Source: Escherichia phage phiWec179
Length of the DNA stretch: 64,000 nucleotides
Sequence record: LC739533.1
Direction: 5' to 3' (one strand)
The notes under the pieces were generated by a model that was not told where the DNA came from, ran no database searches, and saw only the letters and a list, made by a program, of their open reading frames with translations. The position numbers and the translations under genes were made by a program. Numbering within the stretch: the first letter of the stretch is position 1; every line of letters begins with the position of its first letter. Below, piece after piece: positions 1,948-58,918 of the stretch.

Positions 1948-3015
1948 TTGACTACCATGATCCGCCTTGCTACACTGTATTTATTAACTAAGGAGGAAAT
2001 TATGGGCGTGATTAAAGGTTGGGACATTCAGAAGAAAGAATGTGAAGAAGTGGCAAGACCAGGTATTACTGTTCTTGGATTTGTTGAACCGTGGAATGGT
2101 GCACATACCAAACTGATGCTGAAATGTGAGAAGCATGGGGAATGGAATACAACCTCCATCAACAACTTCAAAAAGAATGGTTCTGGTTGTAATGGTTGTA
2201 GAGCGGATATATGTGGTGCAAGAGCAGAAGGGAATAGCTTTGCAAGTAAAAATGCTATCTCAGATGAGCAACACATTAAGGATTTCTTGGCTACCGGATT
2301 GTTTGCAGAGGGGACAACCTTCGTCAATACAGGTGTGAAAACAAAAGGTAATCACAACTGCGTGTGGAAAGTAAGTTGCCCTGTTTGTGCTGTGGATGTA
2401 TATTCTCAAGCTGGTTTATGTGATGGTAGTTTTGAAGGTCTGACTACACACCTTAAGGCTGGAAAGGTTCCTTGTCGTTGCTCTCCACGTCATTGCTATT
2501 CTAAAGACCAATGGTTGTTTAGATTTCAGTTAATGTGTGAAGAAAAAGGTTATACTTTCATCAAGGCCATCTACGAAGGGGAAGCATACTCTCATGGAGA
2601 TGTTGAGTATGCTTGTCCAGAACACGGCTCACAACGCATGACTGTGAAGAACCTCATGTCAGGTAAAGGTTGTCCAGAGTGTGCCAATAAAACACAACAG
2701 TTCTGTTATATCAATGAAGTGTATGATGAAGATAATAATCTCTGCGCTCTTAAATTTGGAATTGCCAATGATGCTGAACGTAGGATCAAAGGTCAGAACT
2801 CGAAGAATGCTTTCACAATGCAACAGAAAGCTGTCTACTTCTTTGATGATATCAAGTCGTGTCGAGCAGCAGAAAGGAAGTGTTTGAAGATGTTGAAGTG
2901 CGGTGTTGTGAATAAATTTCAATTGCAGGATGGACACACAGAAACAACCCATCTGGACAATTACGAAATTATTGAGGCTATTTACGAAAGTTTTGGAGGG
3001 GTGTTACAGAAATGA
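1948..3015 (+). CDS. Cys-rich zinc-ribbon protein with C-terminal T5orf172/GIY-YIG-like domain
   Basis: Repeated C-x-x-C/C-P-E-H-G/C-P-E-C pairs; C-terminal LKFGIANDAERRIKG resembles the KIGxT..RL core of T5orf172 domain; opposite strand to surrounding tail genes. Confidence 0.45.
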   Translation: MTTMIRLATLYLLTKEEIMGVIKGWDIQKKECEEVARPGITVLGFVEPWNGAHTKLMLKCEKHGEWNTTSINNFKKNGSGCNGCRADICGARAEGNSFASKNAISDEQHIKDFLATGLFAEGTTFVNTGVKTKGNHNCVWKVSCPVCAVDVYSQAGLCDGSFEGLTTHLKAGKVPCRCSPRHCYSKDQWLFRFQLMCEEKGYTFIKAIYEGEAYSHGDVEYACPEHGSQRMTVKNLMSGKGCPECANKTQQFCYINEVYDEDNNLCALKFGIANDAERRIKGQNSKNAFTMQQKAVYFFDDIKSCRAAERKCLKMLKCGVVNKFQLQDGHTETTHLDNYEIIEAIYESFGGVLQK

Positions 3016-42283: not shown

Positions 42284-43276
42284 ATGCGCTATCTGGTAAC
42301 AGGTGGTCTTGGTTTTATTGGGAGCGCCGTTGTGCGCTCTCTTTGTCAAGATCCTAATAACGAAGTTTTTGTCATTGATAAAATGGGCTACGCAGCCGAT
42401 ATTGAAAATGTAGGGGATATCACTCACGCCAAACTAAGCATGACGGATTTGGCAAACGAAGCACAGGTCAAAAGTTTGGTGGTAGAATGCAACCCTGATT
42501 TCATTATTCACTTAGCGGCAGAGAGTCATGTGGACAACTCTATCAAAAATCCACGAGCTTTCATCGACTCCAATATCATCGGTACATATAATTTACTGGA
42601 AGCTGCGAGACTACTCCCAAGGAATAAGCTGAAGATGTTTGTACACGTCTCCACAGACGAAGTGTACGGCGATATGGCAGACTCTGGCGCTCCCTTTACC
42701 GAAGAGACAGCATATACTCCTTCAAGCCCGTACAGCGCGTCCAAGGCGGCTTCTGATCATCTTGTGAAAGCTTGGCACCGTACTTATGACTTGCCTGTAG
42801 TGATAACTAATTGCTCCAATAATTTTGGACCTTACCAATACCCTGAAAAATTGATTCCAAAAGTAATCACAAGCATCTTGACGAACAAAGAAATCCCAGT
42901 GTATGGTAAAGGTGATCAGGTACGAGACTGGCTTTTTGTTGAGGACCATGCACGAGCTATTCTTCAGGTAGCTTCTGGCGGCGAACCTGGACAAACTTAC
43001 AACGTAGGTACACGTAATCCTAAAACCAATATGGAGATCATCTATATGATTTGTGATTACATGGATGCCGTACACCCGCAAAGTGGAACCTACCCCTCTT
43101 CAAGTTTAATAACTTTTGTTGAAGATCGTAAAGGACATGACTTGCATTATGAAATCAACCCTGCTAAGATTGAATCTGAACTGGGTTGGAGTGCAAACTC
43201 CACATTTGAACAAGACCTTTACTCTACGATAGAGTGGTATTTAAACAACCCTCAATGGTGGAGAGAAAAGATTTAA
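42284..43276 (+). CDS. rmlB: dTDP-glucose 4,6-dehydratase
   Basis: TGGLGFIGS Rossmann motif, [10 protein letters not shown] (YxxxK) catalytic motif. Confidence 0.85.
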
Positions 43277-43284
43277 GGAGGGTT

Positions 43285-44163
43285 ATGAAAGGTATTATTT
43301 TGGCTGGAGGAAGTGGAACCCGCCTACATCCAGTAACACGCAGTGTGAGCAAGCAATTGCTCCCTGTGTATGACAAACCTATGATTTATTATCCTTTATC
43401 AGTCTTGATGTTGGCAGATATTAAGGATATCTTAATCATCACAACCCCAGGCGATCAGGAAGATTTTGAGTATCTTCTTGGAGATGGATCTATGTTTGGG
43501 ATAAAGATCACTTACGCAATGCAGTCTGAACCACGAGGTCTTGCAGATGCTTTCATCATTGGTAAAGATTTCATTGGGGAAGATTCTGTTGCCCTTATTT
43601 TAGGGGATAACTTGTTCTTCGGACAAAGTTTCGGAAAACTTCTTATCCAAGCCAGCGAAATGGTGGATGTTTGGGGTGGAGCTTGTATCTTCGGGTATCT
43701 GGTGAAAGATCCTGAACGATTCGGTGTTGTTGAGTTTGGAAGTAATCGCCAAGCTATCTCTATTGAAGAGAAACCGGAACATCCTAAATCAGACTATGCT
43801 GTCACGGGTTTGTATTTCTATGACAACTCTGTTGTTCAACGTGCATTGGAAGTAACCCCTTCCGAGCGTGGAGAACTGGAGATCACAGATATCAATCGCA
43901 GCTACCTCGAAGACAGGAAGTTACAAGTTGAAGTTCTTGGAAGAGGATTCACTTGGTTGGATACAGGGACACACGCCAGTCTAATGGAAGCAGGTCAATT
44001 CGTGCAGACTATTGAGAACTGCCAAGGATTGAAGATTGCGTGCCTGGAAGAGATCGCTTTCAAAAAAGGGTGGATTTCTTTAGAGACTTTGGTGTATCAT
44101 GGCAACTCATTGAAGAAAACAGAGTACGGGCAATATTTGTTAAAATTAGCGGAGGGTAAATGA
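43285..44163 (+). CDS. rmlA: Glucose-1-phosphate thymidylyltransferase
   Basis: [17 protein letters not shown] signature; start set to ATG 43285 after RBS AAGGAGGG. Confidence 0.85.
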
Positions 44164-44720
44164 AAATAAAAGAATTAAGTATTCCTGGTCTGGTTGTCTT
44201 TAAACCTCAAGTTTACAAAGATGATCGTGGTTACTTCACGGAGACGTTTAACGAGAAGATTTACGAAGAGGTTATTGGCAAACAAACGTTTGTTCAGGAT
44301 AACCATTCATTCTCTACTTTAGGTGTTCTTCGCGGAATGCACTTTCAAGTAAACAATCCGCAAGGTAAGCTTGTACGTTGCACACGAGGTGAAGTTTTTG
44401 ACGTGGCTGTAGATCTTCGTGAAGGTAGTCCAACCTTCGGACAATGGGAAGGTGTGATTCTTAGTGGGCGTAACAATAAACAGTTTTGGATTCCACCTGG
44501 CTTTGCACATGGTTTTGTTGTAACCTCTTATGAAGCCAACTTTGAATACAAGTGCACCAACTACTACGATCCGGCATCTGAACGTAGTTTGTTGTGGAAC
44601 GATCCTACTGTGAATATTGATTGGGGTTTTGATATGATTTTCAATGATGAGAATTTTGTACCTATCATTTCGGAAAAGGATGCACAAGCTAAAACACTGA
44701 AGGAGCTTATGGAATCATGA
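44160..44720 (+). CDS. rmlC: dTDP-4-dehydrorhamnose 3,5-epimerase
   Basis: Cupin-type RmlC pattern ([11 protein letters not shown] ... GMHFQ ... [10 protein letters not shown]). Confidence 0.85.
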
Positions 44721-45559
44721 AAACATATTTAGTATTGGGTGGTAATGGTCAATTAGGTCAGGCACTGCGTAAAGTGGTGCCGGAGAATGTGACTTTGGTG
44801 TATCCAGAAAAGCGTGTAGATATCACCAGTTTCGAAGCTGTAAGAAAAGCGATCATGGACACCCCAAATATTAACGGTGTTATCAACTGTGCGGCATACA
44901 CTGCGGTGGACAAAGCAGAGACAGATGTTGATGCAGCTATGGCTGTAAATTTACACGGGGCAGCTAATATTGCTGCCTTCTGTAAGGCTTGGGATATTGA
45001 CATGGTGCATATTTCTACTGACTATGTGTTCAACAGCGATAAACCGTTGTTCCATCAGGATGAACCCAACCCTATCAATGTTTACGGGTTATCTAAAAGT
45101 TTGGGTGAAGCTGCTGTTCGTGGTATCTACCATAAAGCTTTTATTATCCGCACGGCTTCTGTGTATAGCGAGTTTGGTAACAACTTCCTGAAGACTATGG
45201 TGTCTCGTTACAACGATGGTCAAAGAGACTTCTCGGTAGTTGCAGATCAAACATCTCGACCAACTTATGCCCCAGATTTGGCTAAGATGATTTTCCAAGT
45301 GTTGGAAACAGGATATAACACCCGTACTTTGCATTACGCTGGGAACATCACTGTTTCGTGGCACCAGTTCGCAAAAATGATATTGACACGTATGCCTGAA
45401 TCTGTTATTATACACCCGACCTCTGCTGCAACCTATAATTCGGCAGCGATGCGACCAGCAAAGTCTATACTAATTACGTCTGGTTGGAACGAACCTTCAA
45501 GCGTCGGACAAGGTATTGAAGAATCTTTAGCAGTATTACTTAATAAGGAGAGAGCATGA
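44717..45559 (+). CDS. rmlD: dTDP-4-dehydrorhamnose reductase
   Basis: LVLGGNGQLG Rossmann motif; ATGA-coupled to rmlC. Confidence 0.8.
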   Translation: MKTYLVLGGNGQLGQALRKVVPENVTLVYPEKRVDITSFEAVRKAIMDTPNINGVINCAAYTAVDKAETDVDAAMAVNLHGAANIAAFCKAWDIDMVHISTDYVFNSDKPLFHQDEPNPINVYGLSKSLGEAAVRGIYHKAFIIRTASVYSEFGNNFLKTMVSRYNDGQRDFSVVADQTSRPTYAPDLAKMIFQVLETGYNTRTLHYAGNITVSWHQFAKMILTRMPESVIIHPTSAATYNSAAMRPAKSILITSGWNEPSSVGQGIEESLAVLLNKERA

Positions 45560-45816
45560 ATTTTGTAATTTACGGCAAACCAAATTGCCAGTTCTGTGAA
45601 ATGTCCAAACAACTCTTAACTATGCGTGAAAAAGAGTTTGAATATCTGACATTAGATCAGGACTATGATTTTGAAGTGATGACTCAAGCAGTGATCGCAG
45701 CAACAGGAATTGCACCTCGCACCTTCCCGCAGATTTTTGTGGAAGAGCTTGGAGCAGTAACCCACGTAGGCGGTTTTACCGAACTGCGTGATTTCATGGC
45801 TCAAATTGCGGAGTAA
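45556..45816 (+). CDS. Glutaredoxin / NrdH-like redoxin
   Basis: 86 aa with N-terminal C-Q-F-C active-site motif. Confidence 0.6.
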   Translation: MNFVIYGKPNCQFCEMSKQLLTMREKEFEYLTLDQDYDFEVMTQAVIAATGIAPRTFPQIFVEELGAVTHVGGFTELRDFMAQIAE

Positions 45817-45979: not shown

Positions 45980-46483
45980 ATGGCTAAAAAAGTAGTAGAT
46001 GAGTTTGACATGTTGGCTGTTGATGAAGGACTGAAGCTGACTGTTTACCCAGACACCTTGGGATATTGGACAGTCGGCATTGGACACCTCTTAACTAAAA
46101 AGAAAGATAAGGCGGAAGCTATTCGTATTCTGGATGCTCTTGTTGGTCGCAAGACTAACGGAGTTATCACAGAGAAAGAAGCCCGTGCTATCTTTGCTGA
46201 CGATGTTGAAAAGGCGAAAAAACAGATTAAAAACAGTTCCATTCTTGCCCCAATTTATGATAAGGTGAGTGAAACCCGTAAACTGGCAATCATCAATATG
46301 GTGTTCCAGTTGGGGTTAACAGGAACGGAAGGCTTTAAAAATAGCTTGACTTTAATCAGTAATTCGTACTATACTCAAGCTGGTAAAAACATGAGAGCCA
46401 GTAAATGGTACTCTCAAACGCCAAACCGTGCAGAACGAGTAATCAAGGTTCTAACATCTGGGACTCTTGATTCTTACAACTAA
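45980..46483 (+). CDS. Endolysin, T4 lysozyme-like (GH24)
   Basis: Collinear with T4 lysozyme: DEGLKLTVYPDTLGYWTVGIGHLLTK ... NMVFQLG ... WYSQTPNRAERV. Confidence 0.85.
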   Translation: MAKKVVDEFDMLAVDEGLKLTVYPDTLGYWTVGIGHLLTKKKDKAEAIRILDALVGRKTNGVITEKEARAIFADDVEKAKKQIKNSSILAPIYDKVSETRKLAIINMVFQLGLTGTEGFKNSLTLISNSYYTQAGKNMRASKWYSQTPNRAERVIKVLTSGTLDSYN

Positions 46484-46520: not shown

Positions 46521-47276
46521 ATGGGAAAAACAGCTACCGCTAAATCACCGCGCCAGAAGTTAGCTTCTAATGCGAAAGTAGAAAGTCGTTATGCTGCAAA
46601 AGCAGTTGGAAATGATGACTATCGTTTAGATGGGTTTTCACCAGAAGGAGATCAGCAGCAAATCGTTCAAAGTATGATCTGGAATGATCTTACAGTCGTA
46701 AATGCTCCAGCAGGGACAGGCAAGACTTCCGTGACTTTATGGAAAGCTTTGCAGATGCTTCGAGCAGGAGATTTCCGTAAGCTTCTTTTTATTAAAAACC
46801 CGACTGAAGTTGGTGATGATCAGATTGGTTTCCTTTCAGGAGATAAAACTGATAAACTGGCGGCGCACTACGAATCAACCAAACGAATCTTCCAGCAGTT
46901 TATGACTGCAAACAAATTAGAGAATGATATTGGTTCCGGTAAGATTGAACTTAATATCCCGAACTACCTACTGGGTGCTACCCTGGACAACACTATTGTG
47001 ATCATTGATGAAGCACAGCTTATGTCTCCAGAAACATTAAAACTTCTGGTAGAGCGTGCAGGGATCAACACTCATGTTGTTGTTCTTGGAGATGTTCGTC
47101 AAACCTACGCTATCAAGAAGCGTGCAAACGGTTTGAAAGATCTTCTTGACAAAGTTGCCCCTGAAGGTGAAGATGGTGTTCGTGTCCCTCTGGTAGACTT
47201 TATCGGTTATGTGCAGTTAACCACAGATGACAACAAACGATCTCGTTTGTCTAAGTTCATCACGGAAATTTATTAA
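46521..47276 (+). CDS. phoH: PhoH-like ATPase
   Basis: Walker A GTGKT, Walker B VIIDEAQ; start moved to ATG 46521. Confidence 0.75.
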   Translation: MGKTATAKSPRQKLASNAKVESRYAAKAVGNDDYRLDGFSPEGDQQQIVQSMIWNDLTVVNAPAGTGKTSVTLWKALQMLRAGDFRKLLFIKNPTEVGDDQIGFLSGDKTDKLAAHYESTKRIFQQFMTANKLENDIGSGKIELNIPNYLLGATLDNTIVIIDEAQLMSPETLKLLVERAGINTHVVVLGDVRQTYAIKKRANGLKDLLDKVAPEGEDGVRVPLVDFIGYVQLTTDDNKRSRLSKFITEIY

Positions 47277-47315: not shown

Positions 47316-47813
47316 ATGGTACAGACAATTATAGATCGGACTGGTATTGATGAATGTTACCAAACTGGGCTTGTGAAGCCTAACGAGTTCCGACAGATTT
47401 GCGTGAATCATATTGAGAAAGAAATTGCACTAACTTTGGAGAACCTTACTCTCCGAGACAAGCTGTCAATGTTTGTGGCTTGGTGTAAAGGTGAAGATTG
47501 GTTATTGGCCCATTTTCAAGAACTTTCTGATAGTCAAGAAGGCTTATATGAATGTATAATAGGAATAGCTGGCTCCAATCCTGAACTTCTCCATTTGGAA
47601 GAAGAAGAGGCGAAGTTATTGTTCTTAAGCAACATGTTCAATCGTAAAGCATTGCTTGTTCGTGAGTGTAGTGATCTTTTAAATCATCCACTGGCGATCA
47701 CAAACGAAATACTGGTTGACAAAGAGACATTACGTGCGATAGACTATCTGCGCAAGTATGTCAACGGCGGGAAAGCAGTTCTTAAAACATTAACAGAGGA
47801 GGAAGCAGAATGA
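47316..47813 (+). CDS. Hypothetical protein
   Basis: 165 aa; ATGA-coupled to HslV-like gene. Confidence 0.45.
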   Translation: MVQTIIDRTGIDECYQTGLVKPNEFRQICVNHIEKEIALTLENLTLRDKLSMFVAWCKGEDWLLAHFQELSDSQEGLYECIIGIAGSNPELLHLEEEEAKLLFLSNMFNRKALLVRECSDLLNHPLAITNEILVDKETLRAIDYLRKYVNGGKAVLKTLTEEEAE

Positions 47814-48499
47814 CTACAATTATCGCAACCAAAAACAAGATCCTTAGCGACGGTAAAGTAACTTTCGGTGGTCGTGTAGATTCAACCAATTTCAAGAAAG
47901 TACGTAAGATTGGGGATTATCTCGTAGGTGGCGCAGGGCGTTTGACTTCGGTATTAGCTTTCTTCCAGTGGTTCGAACAGAACCTGCAATGTGAAGCGGC
48001 GCGTGAGGCAGTGCCTGGGTTGATGATCAGTTCTAACCCTGATCGTGAAGATGAAGAGTTTATTGCTCTCGTTGTTCACCCAGACGGACGTATTTTCCTG
48101 CATGAAGGTAATGATCCTACTCGTGCATACCCAATCGACGAAGAATACTACGCAGTAGGTAGTGGTTCCGATTTCGCGCTCGCAGCACTGGACGGCGGTG
48201 CTTCTCCAGAAGCTGCTATGGAGGTTGCCAAGAAGCGTGACGCATACTCCGGTGGCGAAACCTTCGTTGAAGAATTAGATGAGATCATTGAACTGACTGA
48301 CGAAGATCTCGAAAACTTCACCAAACAAGAACTGATCAACCTGCTCAAGTTTGGTGATCCTTCTGGTGAAGAAACTCCTCGTGACGTGGCAGGTGACGAG
48401 ACGGTAGAAGAAGAGGTTGCTGTAGAAAAAGACTTGACTTCTAAACCGGAAAATATTAATCTCGTAAACGTAGCGGATTTCGACAATCCCGCTGCTTAA
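47810..48499 (+). CDS. HslV-like N-terminal-threonine peptidase with acidic C-terminal extension
   Basis: After Met: TTIIATKNK (Thr nucleophile position), KKVRKIGD, GGAGRLTS, AVGSGSDFALAAL, collinear with HslV; extra acidic tail. Confidence 0.55.
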   Translation: MTTIIATKNKILSDGKVTFGGRVDSTNFKKVRKIGDYLVGGAGRLTSVLAFFQWFEQNLQCEAAREAVPGLMISSNPDREDEEFIALVVHPDGRIFLHEGNDPTRAYPIDEEYYAVGSGSDFALAALDGGASPEAAMEVAKKRDAYSGGETFVEELDEIIELTDEDLENFTKQELINLLKFGDPSGEETPRDVAGDETVEEEVAVEKDLTSKPENINLVNVADFDNPAA

Positions 48500-48504
48500 T
48501 AAAA

Positions 48505-48527
48505 CTGCCCCTTCGGGGGCATTTCTT
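48505..48527 (+). terminator. Rho-independent terminator
   Basis: GCCCC-TTCG-GGGGC followed by ATTTCTT. Confidence 0.45.
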
Positions 48528-48544
48528 ACACAGAGGAGATTATT

Positions 48545-54305: not shown

Positions 54306-55244
54306 ATGAAAGTATTAATCGGTAGTCGTGCGTTGGAAATGATTTGTCGTTCTCGTGGTGTAGAACTGTATCGTGCTTGCGTAGATCTGGATTACCTCTG
54401 CACTGAAGAAGAGTGGCAAGCAGAAGCCCAGAAATTCTCGAAAGATCGTTTCGTAGAAATTGTTGAACGTAAAGGTAACAAAGGGCATATCAAAATGATC
54501 GCGGGCGCTCATCTGGAATATGATATTGCACAACCAGGCGACTCTACAGATGCTTTGATTCAATACATCAAAGAGAATGCAGATCATCTGCCGCGTATTG
54601 GTTATGATGTGGTCGCGCCTTTGGATGTTTTATACCTTCTGAAGATGAGTCACCGTTTTAAGAAGGACAGTCCTCACTTCCTGAAAACAATGAAGGATAT
54701 CCACTTCATGCGTAACCTTGGAGCGAAGATCCCTGAAGAGTTGGAAGATACATACAAACTGCGTCAGAAGGAGTCCTATAATTACGGGCACCCTAATCTG
54801 AACGTGAAAAGTAAAGATTTCTTCAAGGGTGATGAAGTGCCTTATGTGTATGATCACGATAGCCTGCACAGAGTTTTAGCTGTAATGGAGGAACCAGCTT
54901 ACACGAACTACCTAAAGGATGGTAACGAGGTAATGACAAGTAAAGATAAGTTCTATGCTGTTGACGAAACTACCAGATTGCTTGGGGTGTTAGAGGAGAG
55001 TTTGGTTCTGGCTTCGGAAAGGTGTCTAATACCTTTCAACTACAGTGTTACAGGGAAGAAGGCATTTCTTATGGCTTTGACTAAAGTTTGCACTTCTATC
55101 ACATCGGGCTACTTTCGAGAATATGCTTATGAAAAGTTCTTCCTTGTGTGTAAGGTATACGATAATATGTATCCTAACGACGAGTGGGTGGATACGTTAA
55201 GACAAGCCATAGATAAGGGGGCTGTTGATGTATATAAAGCATAA
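54306..55244 (+). CDS. Hypothetical protein, possible nucleotidyltransferase fold
   Basis: N-terminal LIGSRALEM ... CVDLDYL loosely resembles the GS...DxD signature of Pol-beta-type nucleotidyltransferases; weak. Confidence 0.3.
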   Translation: MKVLIGSRALEMICRSRGVELYRACVDLDYLCTEEEWQAEAQKFSKDRFVEIVERKGNKGHIKMIAGAHLEYDIAQPGDSTDALIQYIKENADHLPRIGYDVVAPLDVLYLLKMSHRFKKDSPHFLKTMKDIHFMRNLGAKIPEELEDTYKLRQKESYNYGHPNLNVKSKDFFKGDEVPYVYDHDSLHRVLAVMEEPAYTNYLKDGNEVMTSKDKFYAVDETTRLLGVLEESLVLASERCLIPFNYSVTGKKAFLMALTKVCTSITSGYFREYAYEKFFLVCKVYDNMYPNDEWVDTLRQAIDKGAVDVYKA

Positions 55245-55839
55245 ATATTTAGGAATCACAGACGAAGACTCCAAAGATGGAGAATTCGTCTACACGATCA
55301 CAGCAGCGAATGGATACTACCAGACCCGTATAGGGGGTTTATGGAGAGCTTTAAATGCGCGGGTAGGTAAGGGATCATACACAAACGTATGTGTAGATTT
55401 TAAAGATTTCAAAGAGTTTGCCGAGAGTGTAACAATATTAGCCAATTATAAAACATTAGATAGTTATGGGAACCACTATCACTTAGATAAAGACTTAAAA
55501 TGTTACAAGAAGGATAAATCTTACAACAAAGATTCAGTGCTGTTTATCCCTGGGCACTTAAATACCGCCTTGAAAGGTGTGATCCCTTACTTGGAGTGTG
55601 GGGCTACTTGTGGAGTCAGTTTTAGTAAGATTCGGAATAAGTTTCGAGCCTACTGTAATGATGGCGGTAGTAGACAGATACATTTAGGGTACTTCGAAAG
55701 TAAAGAAGCTGCTCAAAAAGCTTGGGTATTGGAGAAGATAAATCAAATAAAACGTTCCTTAATCAAAGAGAACATCTCGGACGAAGATATTTTGTATTTT
55801 ACGGGTGTTTTGATAAGCGATTTAGAAGGAGGTTATTGA
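55228..55839 (+). CDS. HNH homing endonuclease-like protein with AP2-like domain
   Basis: GNHYHLDKD ... N ... PGHLN HNH-like core plus FRAYCNDGGSRQIHLGYFESKEAAQKAW AP2-type element. Confidence 0.45.
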   Translation: MYIKHKYLGITDEDSKDGEFVYTITAANGYYQTRIGGLWRALNARVGKGSYTNVCVDFKDFKEFAESVTILANYKTLDSYGNHYHLDKDLKCYKKDKSYNKDSVLFIPGHLNTALKGVIPYLECGATCGVSFSKIRNKFRAYCNDGGSRQIHLGYFESKEAAQKAWVLEKINQIKRSLIKENISDEDILYFTGVLISDLEGGY

Positions 55840-55840
55840 T

Positions 55841-56239
55841 ATGGGTTGGTGTGATCAGTCACAAAGTTACTTCAAAGTGACACATGTGGATCTCAACAAG
55901 GCAAGAGTGAAGCTGTTGAGTATTGAAAAAGAAACAGCAGCTATTGACAAACGCCTCCGAGAGAGTAAAGTGGTAATCACTTCTTGGTTCGGACTGAAAC
56001 GTAAAGTCCTCACGCAGCGAGAGCATGTAATTAAAAATATGCATGGTTGGGCTTGGTTCCACGACATGGCAAAACACCTGGGGTACATTTCTACTGAAGA
56101 ACACGACCTCTTGGAGCTACGTTATCGCCTTCCAGATGTAGAAGATTTAGATTTGTGGATCAGTTCCGAACAAATCTTCTTAACCGAGAGCGATTGGAAG
56201 AAAGTCAATATTTGTCTTAAATGGAGGGAGAATGAGTAA
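55841..56239 (+). CDS. Hypothetical protein
   Basis: 132 aa; coupled start. Confidence 0.45.
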   Translation: MGWCDQSQSYFKVTHVDLNKARVKLLSIEKETAAIDKRLRESKVVITSWFGLKRKVLTQREHVIKNMHGWAWFHDMAKHLGYISTEEHDLLELRYRLPDVEDLDLWISSEQIFLTESDWKKVNICLKWRENE

Positions 56240-57638: not shown

Positions 57639-58133
57639 ATGTTTCAAGTAGAAATTCATGTGCACAACAGTTGTTCAAATTGCGAAACTTGTGGTTACAA
57701 TAGTTCAACCATGATCACTGTTAGCGGAGACTTAGGACATGCCAAGTTTGGCGAAGTCGCAAGCTGCTTCAGCGGAGAGGATGCAGATTGGCATGATATT
57801 GCTTTGTGGCTATGCGGAAGACTGAATGTAAATTGTAAAGACTTCCCTGAACTGTTGAGCCGAAATCTTATTGATAGTCGGGAACAAGCCTACAATATTT
57901 ATGCCGCTTCTGTTTATGTTGATCATAAATGGGTAGAAGATGAAGAAGCTGAACGTTTGCTGCGCCTCTACTACGAAGCAGAGGAAGCTTATGATAACTA
58001 TTATAGCATGTCCAACATTCTACGCTTGTTTGCAGAGTTTGATATTTACTTTGAAGTGAGTTATTCTGAAGAGGAAGTGTATGATTTTGATGACGATGAT
58101 TACGAGGAGGATGAAGAATGCCAAGACGATTAA
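57639..58133 (+). CDS. Hypothetical Cys-containing acidic protein
   Basis: Start set to ATG 57639 after RBS GGGAGGAAA; C-terminal poly-acidic tail. Confidence 0.4.
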   Translation: MFQVEIHVHNSCSNCETCGYNSSTMITVSGDLGHAKFGEVASCFSGEDADWHDIALWLCGRLNVNCKDFPELLSRNLIDSREQAYNIYAASVYVDHKWVEDEEAERLLRLYYEAEEAYDNYYSMSNILRLFAEFDIYFEVSYSEEEVYDFDDDDYEEDEECQDD

Positions 58134-58918
58134 TAGTGATCAGCGGTGCTGGTCTAAGCGCCGATAGCGGTGTACGTACTTTCCGCACTGATACAGATAG
58201 CGGGAAAGCTTTGTGGGATGAATACGACCTTTCTGAAGTGTGCGATATTTTCAATTTCCGTGCTGGCTACCAGCAAGAACAATGTGTTCCTGGCGCTGCT
58301 GGTGGATTAGATGCAGAGGGATACAACCTCTACCGTAAAACTCACGACTTCTACAATAAACGTCGCGTAGAGATGGATAGTGTGTCTCCTAACGCTGCGC
58401 ATTACCAGATCGCAGAGTGGTTCCAAGAGTACGGCTGCGATCGTGTTATCAACATCACAACAAACGTAGATGATCTTCTGGAACAAGCAGGGGTTGTTCA
58501 TGAAGATGTTCTGCATGTTCACGGCTTCCTGCCTGAAGTGATTGTAGACAATAGAATCATCAAGGATGTTGGTTATGCTGCTATTGATGTAGATGATTAC
58601 AAGTATGTGAAGCCCAATGTAGTGTTCTTTGGGGAGACTGCCCCACTGTATAACGATATGTACCACATCTTAGACGGCTTGACGGCTCAAGATATGGTGG
58701 TTGTAGTGGGCTGCTCTAATCAAGTGATCAACTTCAACTGGGATTTGTTCCCAGCCCTCAACATAGGAACAAAGATGGTCGTAGTTAATCCTGGGGTTAA
58801 TTACGAAGAAACACTTCTCTATGAAGATCGTGGAGTTTTTGTTTACCGAGAAAAAGCTGCAACAGCCTTCAGTAATGAAGGTTTCATTAAAATGATCGAA
58901 GACCACTTAAACAAATAA
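58118..58918 (+). CDS. Sir2-family (sirtuin-like) NAD-dependent protein
   Basis: ISGAGLSADSGVRTFR, VLHVHG, VVFFGE; no obvious Zn-binding Cys tetrad. Confidence 0.6.
   Translation: MPRRLIVISGAGLSADSGVRTFRTDTDSGKALWDEYDLSEVCDIFNFRAGYQQEQCVPGAAGGLDAEGYNLYRKTHDFYNKRRVEMDSVSPNAAHYQIAEWFQEYGCDRVINITTNVDDLLEQAGVVHEDVLHVHGFLPEVIVDNRIIKDVGYAAIDVDDYKYVKPNVVFFGETAPLYNDMYHILDGLTAQDMVVVVGCSNQVINFNWDLFPALNIGTKMVVVNPGVNYEETLLYEDRGVFVYREKAATAFSNEGFIKMIEDHLNK

What the first reader, a model, noticed from the sequence alone, without database searches (positions are those of the whole stretch)
47810..48499. Phage-encoded HslV-like protease with no HslU partner in sight
The ORF is collinear with the bacterial proteasome-like peptidase HslV: Thr directly after the initiator Met, then KKVRK, GGAG and GSGS...AA blocks. 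It adds an acidic C-terminal tail of about 60 aa. No AAA+ ATPase is encoded nearby. It could hijack host HslU or ClpX-type unfoldases to degrade host or defence proteins, or act as a decoy.
Basis: partly seen in the sequence, partly recalled or inferred. Interest (0 to 1): 0.65.

Follow-up and report, generated by a model that had tools for sequence, protein, structure and literature searches.

The report
Phage proteasome-like peptidase, known family
The ORF is a real, probably active proteasome/HslV-type threonine peptidase, but it belongs to a phage-borne branch (PPH-like) that is already annotated and published, is not an HslV orthologue, lacks HslV's HslU-docking features, and is dispensable in at least one related phage; its function is still untested.

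Summary
The ORF (47810-48499, +, 229 aa) is real and has a proteasome-type Ntn fold. Thr follows the initiator Met, and the Thr1/Asp17/Lys33/Ser129/Asp166/Ser169 equivalents are invariant or nearly so across relatives down to about 30% identity.

It is not an HslV orthologue. It scores 32 and 31 bits against NCBI's HslV equivalog models (cut-offs 137 and 158). It lacks helix H2, most HslU-pocket residues differ, and HslV's basic pore cluster is acidic here. It fits the phage lineage "PPH/RPC" of Fuchs, Alva and Lupas (2021), who also found no AAA+ partner. Homologs occur in 193 phage records, many already labelled "peptidase HslV family".

Points I add:
- The "acidic tail" is a conserved two-helix module (residues about 156-183) followed by a variable, acidic, disordered stretch.
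- Long forms sit downstream of a PhoH-like ATPase in 7 of 7 informative lineages. In the closer ones a translationally coupled ORF of unknown function lies between.
- Phage VEcB carries a 1.1-kb deletion that removes the catalytic N-terminus, so the gene is dispensable for lytic growth.
- No AAA+ gene lies in the window. One classic AAA ATPase lies about 49 kb away but is not co-distributed with this gene.

Hijacking of HslU and a decoy role are poorly supported. The kind is known, the function is open, and interest is modest.

The parts
47810..48499 (+). Gene for a 229-aa proteasome-family (PPH-like, long form) N-terminal-threonine peptidase; Thr codon at 47813-47815
47810..48274 (+). Ntn-hydrolase core (residues 1-155). 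Catalytic equivalents in precursor numbering: T2, D14, K30, G40, S118, D144, S147. Has H1 (45-67); no H2 (68-83 is an acidic coil, ...SSNPDREDEE)
48275..48358 (+). Conserved C-terminal two-helix module (residues ~156-183; helices 164-168 and 172-181; motif LTxE-x5-F(S/T)K(Q/E)EL(I/L)NLLxxG)
48359..48496 (+). Variable acidic disordered tail (residues 184-229; pLDDT mostly <50). The sequence is not conserved, but acidity is
47796..47803 (+). Shine-Dalgarno-like GAGGAGGA, 6 nt upstream of the ATG, inside the end of the upstream ORF
   Evidence: read directly from the sequence
47316..47813 (+). Upstream 165-aa ORF of unknown function (phrog_14834). Its stop overlaps the peptidase start (ATGA). It is conserved immediately upstream of long-form peptidases in distant contigs
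46521..47276 (+). PhoH-like P-loop ATPase, same strand. Found upstream of the long-form peptidase in 7/7 informative lineages
48506..48528 (+). Terminator-like hairpin (TGCCCCTTCGGGGGCA) plus T-rich run, 7 nt after the stop codon. Probable end of the transcription unit
   Evidence: consensus match only

Best explanation
Shown:
- The ORF encodes a catalytically competent member of the proteasome/HslV superfamily.
- It belongs to a phage-borne lineage (PPH/RPC-like in the scheme of Fuchs et al. 2021), not to HslV proper.
- Host methionine aminopeptidase should expose Thr1 (inferred from established MetAP specificity). There is no propeptide.
- The full proteasome-type catalytic set is under strong purifying selection.
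- The gene lies in the nucleotide-metabolism/host-takeover module. It is probably co-transcribed with a PhoH-like ATPase and a coupled 165-aa ORF.
- It is an accessory gene and is not essential.

Inferred:
- By homology with HslV, BPH and 20S beta it probably assembles into stacked rings and works without a dedicated AAA+ unfoldase, i.e. as an ATP-independent peptidase acting on peptides or unfolded/disordered proteins.
- Its HslU-docking surface is remodelled and its pore region is acidic, as in the unfoldase-independent BPH.
- The conserved C-terminal two-helix module, which in this fold should project away from the ring, and the acidic disordered tail are the most likely elements for binding a partner or substrate, or for stabilising the rings.
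- Substrate and physiological role are unknown.
For: Identity and fold: core pLDDT >90; HslV/BPH/20S beta, E~1e-10, TM 0.56-0.71 normalised to target; 44 viral structure clusters with this fold.

Catalytic competence: T2, T3, D14, K30, G117, G119 are invariant and S118, D144, S147, G148, G149 are >=90% conserved in 55 sequences down to ~25-30% identity. The RDxxSGG block matches the proteasome-beta Asp166/Ser169 motif.

Not HslV: (32.4 bits vs 137; 31 vs 157.75). Bit scores to ~140-aa phage proteins (55-77 bits; Caulobacter/Rhizobium phage proteins E 1e-14 to 1e-16) exceed those to HslV (26-38 bits).

PPH/RPC hallmark (no H2): one search compared with PMC8665760 section 3.3.

Docking surface and pore changed: using residues from PMC6429459 and PMC5777263.

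No unfoldase. The only AAA in the genome is not co-distributed with this gene and has no aromatic-Gly pore loop or HbYX end. Fuchs et al. independently found no AAA+ co-occurrence.

Tail module conserved: a strict motif is present in 32/62 long-form clusters against 0.03 expected in shuffles, and the following 30 aa are 36% D/E against 13% in cores.

Operon context.

Dispensable: the VEcB deletion removes residues 1-62 plus the upstream ORF and half of PhoH.
Against: - No biochemical data exist for any member of this lineage.
- The characterised unfoldase-less relatives BPH and Anbu were inert in standard peptidase assays (PMC5777263), so 'active ATP-independent peptidase' is an inference.
- Ring assembly is not shown. 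The tandem-trimer AlphaFold trick gave only pTM 0.45 and mean pLDDT 67, and Fuchs et al. warn that some homologs may not form rings.
- Loss of H2 could change oligomerisation.
- Residues F57, E61 and R35 of the HslV apical surface are retained, so some interaction with HslU cannot be excluded from sequence alone.
- Constant PhoH adjacency might mean an ATPase partner after all.
Confidence: 0.6

Rival explanations
1. Hijacking of a host unfoldase: the phage peptidase forms HslV-like rings that dock onto host HslU (or another host AAA+ such as ClpX) and redirect ATP-dependent degradation to host or defence proteins.
For: The overall HslV-like fold and direct sequence matches to HslV. The known hosts of carrier phages listed are Proteobacteria, which generally possess HslUV (my own knowledge). 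F57, E61 and R35 equivalents are retained. No phage unfoldase is evident.
Against: - K28, F54, Q114 and the A79/K80 helix (H2) of the HslU pocket are not conserved or are absent, and the basic pore cluster is inverted to acidic.
- It fails the HslV equivalog models.
- The apparent HslU-tail-like DEDLxxF in the tail is confined to close relatives (12 of 234 proteins).
- ClpX docks on ClpP through a different fold and symmetry (established knowledge).
- BPH, which likewise lost these residues, is considered HslU-independent (PMC5777263).
Confidence: 0.12
2. A phage-encoded ATPase is the partner. Either the adjacent PhoH-like P-loop ATPase (perhaps bridged by the coupled phrog_14834 protein and the conserved C-terminal module), or the classic AAA ATPase encoded ~49 kb away.
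For: - PhoH lies upstream on the same strand in 7/7 informative long-form lineages, including one only 32% identical where it is directly adjacent. Short forms lacking the C-terminal module show no PhoH nearby.
- The start overlaps the upstream ORF in two lineages.
- PhoH, the upstream ORF and the peptidase N-terminus were lost together in VEcB.
- The genome has a PF00004 AAA whose closest solved matches are p97/Cdc48/VAT.
Against: - PhoH-like proteins are SF1-helicase-related RNA helicases/ATPases, not known unfoldases (PMC7824862).
- The whole RNR-glutaredoxin-lysin-PhoH-peptidase block is collinear in these phages, so adjacency may be inherited rather than functional.
- Relatives of the AAA ATPase occur in 394 phage records, mostly Gram-positive myophages and crAss-like phages without this peptidase. 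Vibrio, Rhizobium and Caulobacter are absent from its top-10 organism tally (the full list was not inspected).
- The AAA has no aromatic-hydrophobic-Gly pore loop and no HbYX C-terminus.
Confidence: 0.1
3. It is not a bulk protease but a specific Ntn enzyme: a site-specific processing peptidase, a transpeptidase/ligase like connectase, or an amidase. It would possibly be non-ring-forming, with the C-terminal module conferring substrate specificity.
For: - The proteasome-like family includes the monomeric, highly specific ligase connectase, and Fuchs et al. stress that several new homologs may not form rings.
- Loss of H2 and gain of a conserved C-terminal module and variable extra domains.
- The trimer prediction was not confident.
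- BPH and Anbu are inert on generic substrates.
Against: - The core retains H3/H4, which mediate ring-ring contacts in HslV/20S (plus established structures).
- The closest structural matches are ring-forming HslV, BPH and 20S beta.
- There is no connectase-like insertion between S3 and S4.
Confidence: 0.15
4. A catalytically irrelevant decoy or inhibitor that titrates host HslU or poisons host HslV rings by co-assembly.
For: Collinearity with HslV. The acidic tail could in principle block a partner.
Against: The nucleophile, the catalytic Asp/Lys, and the Ser129/Asp166/Ser169 equivalents are invariant or nearly so over deep divergence, which is unexpected for a decoy. The HslU-docking residues are not conserved. 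It is only ~25-28% identical to HslV, which makes co-assembly unlikely.
Confidence: 0.03

Closest known systems
[quoted passage not shown]
   Same: Group-I compact proteasome-like core with the Thr1/Asp17/Lys33 triad. Lacks helix H2. No propeptide. Carried by tailed phages. No AAA+ partner found. RPC also has a C-terminal extension of unknown fold. The ~140-aa Caulobacter and Rhizobium phage proteins are the nearest short relatives.
   Different: PPH is described as ~140 residues. This protein has ~75 more, including a conserved two-helix module. RPC is listed for Proteobacteria only, not phages. I could not obtain the reference sequences (WP_042125023.1, WP_140207863), so assignment to PPH versus RPC is by features, not by clustering.
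HslV (ClpQ), peptidase of the bacterial HslVU protease
   Same: Same fold. Met-Thr-Thr start without a propeptide. D17/K33/S124 equivalents. Direct sequence hits at E 1e-8 to 1e-5. TM 0.64-0.71 normalised to target.
   Different: Fails the equivalog HMMs (32 bits vs 137; 31 vs 158). No hslU. No H2. K28, F54 and Q114 changed. The basic pore cluster is acidic. Has the proteasome-like RDxxSGG where E. coli HslV has GDICIYTNH. Has a C-terminal module plus an acidic tail.
BPH (bacterial proteasome homolog; Fuchs et al. 2018, PMC5777263)
   Same: An HslV-derived relative that lost the HslU-interface residues, has an acidic pore region and has no known unfoldase. It is among the top structural matches (5ovt/5ovs, E~2e-10).
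   Different: BPH has both H1 and H2, an elongated acidic pore loop and heptameric rings. It is bacterial, not phage-borne, and has no C-terminal helical module. Target-normalised TM is only 0.56.
PHROG 1040 'peptidase HslV family' (phage annotation family)
   Same: The protein matches over residues 1-216 at E=3.5e-59. Homologs 78-94% identical at the DNA level are already labelled this way in GenBank/RefSeq.
   Different: The name is an annotation label, not a tested function, and it overstates the relationship to HslV.

Membership tests
Proteasome/HslV superfamily (Pfam PF00227; N-terminal-nucleophile threonine peptidases) | Sequence score above the curated family threshold | tested here: met
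   PF00227 25.5 bits against a gathering cut-off of 22.4, E=1.2e-5; PHROG 1040 E=3.5e-59
Proteasome/HslV superfamily (Pfam PF00227; N-terminal-nucleophile threonine peptidases) | N-terminal Thr nucleophile exposed at the mature N-terminus | tested here: met
   The sequence is M-T-T-I-I. T2 is invariant in 55/55 sequences. Met removal is inferred from MetAP specificity for small P1' residues (established knowledge), not shown.
Proteasome/HslV superfamily (Pfam PF00227; N-terminal-nucleophile threonine peptidases) | Asp17, Lys33, Gly47, Ser129, Asp166 and Ser169 equivalents | tested here: met
   D14 and K30 invariant; G40 is G in 48/54 and A in 6/54; S118 in 53/54; D144 in 54/54; S147 >=90%
Proteasome/HslV superfamily (Pfam PF00227; N-terminal-nucleophile threonine peptidases) | Alpha-beta-beta-alpha Ntn fold | tested here: met
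   AF2 core pLDDT >90; Foldseek matches to HslV, BPH and 20S beta at E~1e-10, probability 1.00
Proteasome/HslV superfamily (Pfam PF00227; N-terminal-nucleophile threonine peptidases) | Thr-dependent peptidase activity | not testable with these tools
   Needs biochemistry. The relatives BPH and Anbu were inert in standard assays (PMC5777263).
HslV (ClpQ) orthologues | Score above the NCBIfam equivalog cut-offs | tested here: not met
   NF003964: 32.4 bits vs 137. TIGR03692: 31 bits vs 157.75
HslV (ClpQ) orthologues | Partner hslU gene (hslVU operon) or any HslU homolog in the genome | tested here: not met
   No HslU/ClpX/Lon-like ORF in the window or in the 94%-identical full genome, apart from one unrelated classic AAA at E=1.3e-3 to ClpX
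HslV (ClpQ) orthologues | HslU C-terminal-tail pocket (K28, F54, F57, A79/K80 on H2, Q114) | tested here: not met
   K28 becomes S (family S/Q/T); F54 becomes L; Q114 becomes I/L; H2 is absent (residues 68-83 are coil). Only F57 is retained. Residue list from PMC6429459; the role of K28 is from my own recollection of the HslVU literature.
HslV (ClpQ) orthologues | Basic pore cluster Arg86/Arg89/Lys90 | tested here: not met
   R, E, E in the query; K/E/R, E, E/D in the family; cluster defined in PMC5777263
HslV (ClpQ) orthologues | Dodecamer of two hexameric rings | tested here: inconclusive
   Tandem-trimer AF2 run: pTM 0.45, mean pLDDT 67. No coordinates or multimer tool were available.
PPH / RPC (Fuchs et al. 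2021) | Compact group-I core lacking helix H2 | tested here: met
   DSSP on the model: H1 45-67, then coil 68-83, no second helix before strand 84-89. Criterion from PMC8665760 section 3.3.
PPH / RPC (Fuchs et al. 2021) | Size ~140 residues without C-terminal elements (PPH), or with a C-terminal extension of unknown fold (RPC) | tested here: inconclusive
   The core ends at ~155 as in the 131-139-aa Caulobacter and Rhizobium phage proteins, but ~75 further residues follow with no Pfam match. This fits 'PPH core plus extension'.
PPH / RPC (Fuchs et al. 2021) | Carried by tailed phages (PPH); Proteobacteria only (RPC) | tested here: met
   193 phage records: Escherichia, Vibrio, Aeromonas, Klebsiella, Rhizobium, Caulobacter and others. 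This favours PPH over RPC.
PPH / RPC (Fuchs et al. 2021) | Clusters with the published representatives WP_042125023.1 (PPH) or WP_140207863 (RPC) | not tested
   The sequences are not retrievable by accession with these tools. The paper's one held supplementary file has no relevant matches.

The most novel reading that the evidence does not exclude
The long-form peptidase, the translationally coupled phrog_14834 protein and the PhoH-like ATPase form one functional phage module. In it, the conserved C-terminal two-helix element and acidic tail recruit a partner or basic, nucleic-acid-binding substrates. This would be a new ATPase-protease pairing unrelated to HslUV, or an RNA/ribosome-directed degradation device.
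Probability: 0.12. Interest if true: 0.7.

Novelty: already known. Interest (0 to 1): 0.3.

Why it matters
Phage-encoded proteasome homologs are widespread: 193 phage records for this branch, and at least 44 viral structure clusters share the fold. None has a known substrate, partner or phenotype. What a virus gains from carrying a chambered-protease subunit without an unfoldase is a genuine open question.

This particular gene does not change that picture. It is a typical member, its close homologs are already annotated, and the 'no HslU' puzzle is already in print.

What is useful here is a sharper experimental handle:
- a defined long-form subfamily with a conserved C-terminal module;
- two constant neighbours (PhoH and phrog_14834);
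- a natural deletion strain (VEcB, against its >99%-identical relative muut) that could be used directly for phenotype screens.

Tried and rejected
1. HslU-tail mimicry in cis. E. coli HslU ends ...ADEDLSRFIL and the phage tail has TDEDLENF. However, DEDLxxF occurs in only 12 of 234 family proteins, all close relatives, and the relaxed form in 4 of 62 long-form clusters. Rejected.

2. The upstream 165-aa ORF as a cryptic second proteasome subunit. This was prompted by two adjacent 'HslV family' genes in Aeromonas phage 4L372D. The family HMM gives E>1 against it, and it is unrelated to Aeromonas gp163. Rejected. There is only one proteasome-like gene in the window and in the related genome.

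3. The genome's AAA ATPase as partner. It is not co-distributed with the peptidase and lacks pore-loop and HbYX features. Weak.

4. Capsid-maturation protease. The gene lies ~35 kb from the head module, on the other strand, in the metabolic module. Its catalytic N-terminus is deleted in the viable phage VEcB. Rejected.

5. Oligomer prediction by concatenating three copies: pTM 0.45, inconclusive.

6. Function of the tail, of the fused extra domains in longer relatives, and of the upstream ORF. No Pfam, NCBIfam or PDB match, including a profile search.

7. Looking up which published cluster holds the phAPEC8-type protein. The paper's held supplementary file has no relevant matches, and cluster look-ups of the ~140-aa relatives gave mostly unnamed metagenomic entries.

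8. Literature on function. Only passing annotation mentions were found, and no experiments.
Full report
**Source and observation**

The window matches Escherichia phage phiWec181/phiWec186 at 100% identity across the 690-bp ORF (Stephanstirmvirinae; filed under Phapecoctavirus, recently proposed as 'Wecvirus', PMC12695924).

The ORF at 47810-48499 (+) is 229 aa. It starts MTTIIAT and has a GAGGAGGA Shine-Dalgarno-like sequence 6 nt upstream.

The match to the proteasome/HslV superfamily is far beyond chance:
- PHROG 1040 'peptidase HslV family', E=3.5e-59.
- Pfam Proteasome above its gathering cut-off.
- Direct phmmer hits to solved HslV chains at E=1.4e-8 to 1e-4.
- An AlphaFold2 model with core pLDDT >90 whose best PDB matches are HslV, BPH and archaeal/eukaryotic 20S beta subunits, at E~1e-10.

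**Active site**

I aligned 55 sequences: the query, relatives down to ~25-30% identity, and E. coli HslV. T2, T3, D14, K30, G117 and G119 are invariant. S118, D144, S147, G148 and G149 are >=90% conserved. These are the equivalents of Thr1, Asp17, Lys33, Ser129, Asp166 and Ser169.

The RDxxSGG block resembles proteasome beta subunits. E. coli HslV has GDICIYTNH at that position.

There is no propeptide. Thr is a permitted P1' residue for methionine aminopeptidase (established knowledge), so the nucleophile should be exposed. Conservation of this kind argues for a working enzyme and against a decoy.

**Not an HslV orthologue**

- Against NCBI's two HslV equivalog models the protein scores 32.4 and 31 bits. 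The cut-offs are 137 and 157.75.
- The model has a long H1 (45-67) but no H2. Residues 68-83 are an acidic coil. Fuchs, Alva and Lupas (2021, PMC8665760) name exactly this feature as distinguishing their PPH and RPC groups.
- Of the HslV residues reported to accommodate the HslU C-terminal tail (F54, F57, A79/K80, Q114; PMC6429459; plus K28 from my own recollection), only F57 is kept.
- HslV's basic pore cluster R86/R89/K90 (PMC5777263) is R-E-E here and K/E/R-E-E/D across the family. That is an acidic pore region, as in the unfoldase-independent BPH.
- In an exhaustive search of 1.84 billion representatives, the nearest relatives after ~60 'long' clusters are many ~130-160-aa proteins at 55-77 bits. 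HslVs score only 26-38 bits.
- The 131-139-aa proteins of Caulobacter and Rhizobium phages match at E 1e-14 to 1e-16. They end a few residues after the YSGG motif, about where this protein's extension begins.

**Already known**

Homologs occur in 193 phage records: Escherichia 106, Vibrio 17, Aeromonas 15, Klebsiella 10, Rhizobium 10, Caulobacter 6 and others. Many are annotated 'peptidase HslV family', 'ATP-dependent protease subunit HslV', 'putative 20S proteasome' or 'nucleophile aminohydrolase'. The 94%-identical gene in PsgM04F and the RefSeq phAPEC8 gene carry that label.

[quoted passage not shown] They reported no co-occurring AAA+ and no informative context. A jumbo-phage paper likewise noted HslV genes without HslU (PMC7823757). 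I found no experimental work on any of these proteins.

**Partner search**

No ORF of >=60 aa in the window resembles E. coli HslU, ClpX, Lon or ClpP (all E>0.8).

Across the near-identical, functionally annotated genome, one 379-aa protein is a classic AAA (PF00004, E=3.5e-9). Its nearest solved structures are p97/Cdc48/VAT D2 domains. In phiWec181 it lies at 54720-55856, ~49 kb from the peptidase and outside the window. It is a weak candidate for three reasons:
- Its relatives are in 394 phage records dominated by Enterococcus, Bacillus, Staphylococcus, Lactobacillus and Lactococcus phages and crAss-like phages, none of which appear in the peptidase's organism tally.
- Vibrio, Rhizobium and Caulobacter do not appear in its top-10 organism tally.
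- It has no aromatic-hydrophobic-Gly pore loop between the Walker motifs and ends in ...SSVF rather than an HbYX motif.

**The tail**

The 'acidic tail of ~60 aa' has two parts.

Residues ~156-183 form two short helices (164-168 and 172-181; pLDDT 82-88 in the monomer model). They carry a motif conserved across Escherichia, Vibrio and Aeromonas phage proteins and metagenomic relatives: (L/I)T(K/R)E-x5-(M/L/F)(S/T)K(E/D)E(L/I)(L/I)-x2-(L/I)(F/L)(G/P). A strict regular expression for it hits 32 of 62 long-form clusters. The expectation is 0.03 in shuffled tails, and there are 0 hits in the cores. Most of the other clusters show obvious near-variants.

What follows is variable. Here it is disordered and acidic; in other relatives there are extra domains of up to ~200 aa without Pfam matches. 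It is compositionally conserved, though: 36% D/E over the next 30 residues against 13% in the cores, with mean net charge -7.9.

Fuchs et al. note that C-termini in this fold face away from the assumed rings and could be interaction sites. I infer that the module is a docking or ring-stabilising element. This is not shown.

**Context**

The peptidase start overlaps the stop of a 165-aa ORF (ATGA; phrog_14834, no detectable homolog of known function). A terminator-like hairpin follows the peptidase stop. A PhoH-like P-loop ATPase precedes the pair.

The phrog_14834 family occupies the same position in Justusliebigvirus and in three metagenomic contigs whose peptidases are 47-54% identical (E~1e-25 between the upstream ORFs). 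It again overlaps the start in one of them. It is found in 133 phage records.

PhoH lies upstream on the same strand in all seven informative long-form lineages. One of these has a peptidase only 32% identical, and there an intein-containing PhoH is directly adjacent. Three short-form contexts have no PhoH nearby.

The RNR-glutaredoxin-lysin-PhoH-peptidase block is collinear in all of these myophages, so shared ancestry is a sufficient explanation. PhoH-like proteins are regarded as RNA helicase-type ATPases (PMC7824862). I therefore rate a functional PhoH partnership as possible but unlikely.

**Dispensability**

Phage VEcB is an isolated, viable Justusliebigvirus that is >99% identical to phage muut on both flanks. 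It lacks 1,122 bp between 8-bp microhomologies. The deletion fuses PhoH residues ~1-113 in frame to peptidase residue ~63 onward. This removes Thr1, Asp17 and Lys33, the whole upstream ORF and half of PhoH.

Barring an assembly error, all three genes are non-essential for lytic growth on that host. This also excludes a role as the capsid-maturation protease.

**Mechanism and limits**

The most likely reading is an accessory, catalytically active proteasome-type peptidase. It would act without a dedicated unfoldase on peptides or unfolded/disordered proteins during infection, with the C-terminal module and acidic tail mediating partner or substrate contacts.

Ring assembly is inferred from homology only. 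A tandem-trimer AlphaFold run was inconclusive (pTM 0.45). The characterised unfoldase-less relatives BPH and Anbu were inactive in standard assays. A specific, non-bulk activity therefore remains a serious rival.

**Verdict**

The 'HslV' label is only superfamily-deep. The hijack and decoy ideas have little support. The kind is already known, and interest is modest (0.3).

Noticed in passing
outside the window: phiWec181 record 54720-55856 (-); L004 41112-42251 (+): A 379-aa classic AAA ATPase (PF00004). Its nearest solved structures are p97/Cdc48/VAT D2 domains. It is conserved in Stephanstirmvirinae, has relatives in 394 phage records (Herelleviridae-type, crAss-like and jumbo phages), and its function is unknown. 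It has a ~130-aa C-terminal region of unknown function.
   Followed up: partly
L010 3432-3983 and 4001-4885 (Aeromonas phage 4L372D gp163, gp162): Two different proteasome-like genes sit side by side: a 183-aa protein starting (M)TCII, and a 294-aa long-form relative of our protein. The pair could form a hetero-oligomer. gp163 matches our family HMM only weakly (E=2.4e-6) and gets no Pfam hit.
   Followed up: partly
L020 ~3001-3008 (Escherichia phage VEcB, gene vecB_055) vs L008 3065-4186 (phage muut): A natural 1,122-bp deletion between 8-bp microhomologies fuses PhoH to the C-terminal two-thirds of the peptidase and removes the phrog_14834 gene. This gives a ready-made knockout with a >99%-identical wild-type comparator.
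   Followed up: yes
L009 2767-3867 (Vibrio phage 1.193.O): A TnpB/IS605 OrfB element (PF01385, PF07282, PF12323) is inserted between PhoH and the peptidase gene. The record annotates it only as 'coil containing protein'.
   Followed up: yes
L017 4084-5946: The PhoH gene next to a distant long-form peptidase is interrupted by an intein/homing-endonuclease (Hom_end_hint and LAGLIDADG Pfam hits).
   Followed up: no
window 42284-45559 (+): A complete-looking phage-encoded dTDP-L-rhamnose pathway: dTDP-glucose 4,6-dehydratase, RmlA, RmlC and RmlD. It is followed by a glutaredoxin-like ORF (45556-45816). Its purpose in a lytic phage is not obvious.
   Followed up: no
window 45980-46483 (+): A T4-lysozyme-type protein (PF00959; PHROG 'baseplate hub subunit and tail lysozyme') is encoded in the metabolic module, far from the tail genes. 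It is conserved just upstream of PhoH; other lysin types occupy that position.
   Followed up: no
records OR584014 (PsgM04F), MG065656 and MG065639 ('Campylobacter phage C3/A150'): A 'Pseudomonas' phage is 94% identical at the DNA level to this E. coli phage gene. 'Campylobacter' phage records carry phi92-type proteins at 70-73% amino-acid identity. The host labels may be wrong, or the records may be contaminants.
   Followed up: no
window 58118-58918 (+): A Sir2/CobB-type NAD-dependent deacylase gene lies in the same co-directional gene run. It is annotated cobB in phiWec181.
   Followed up: no
P0050 (Escherichia phage vB_EcoM-Ro121c4YLVW): This phage has an annotated 159-aa version of the peptidase starting at MIHSDPDKEDEE, so it lacks the catalytic N-terminus. 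It could be a mis-called start, a frameshift or a second natural truncation.
   Followed up: no
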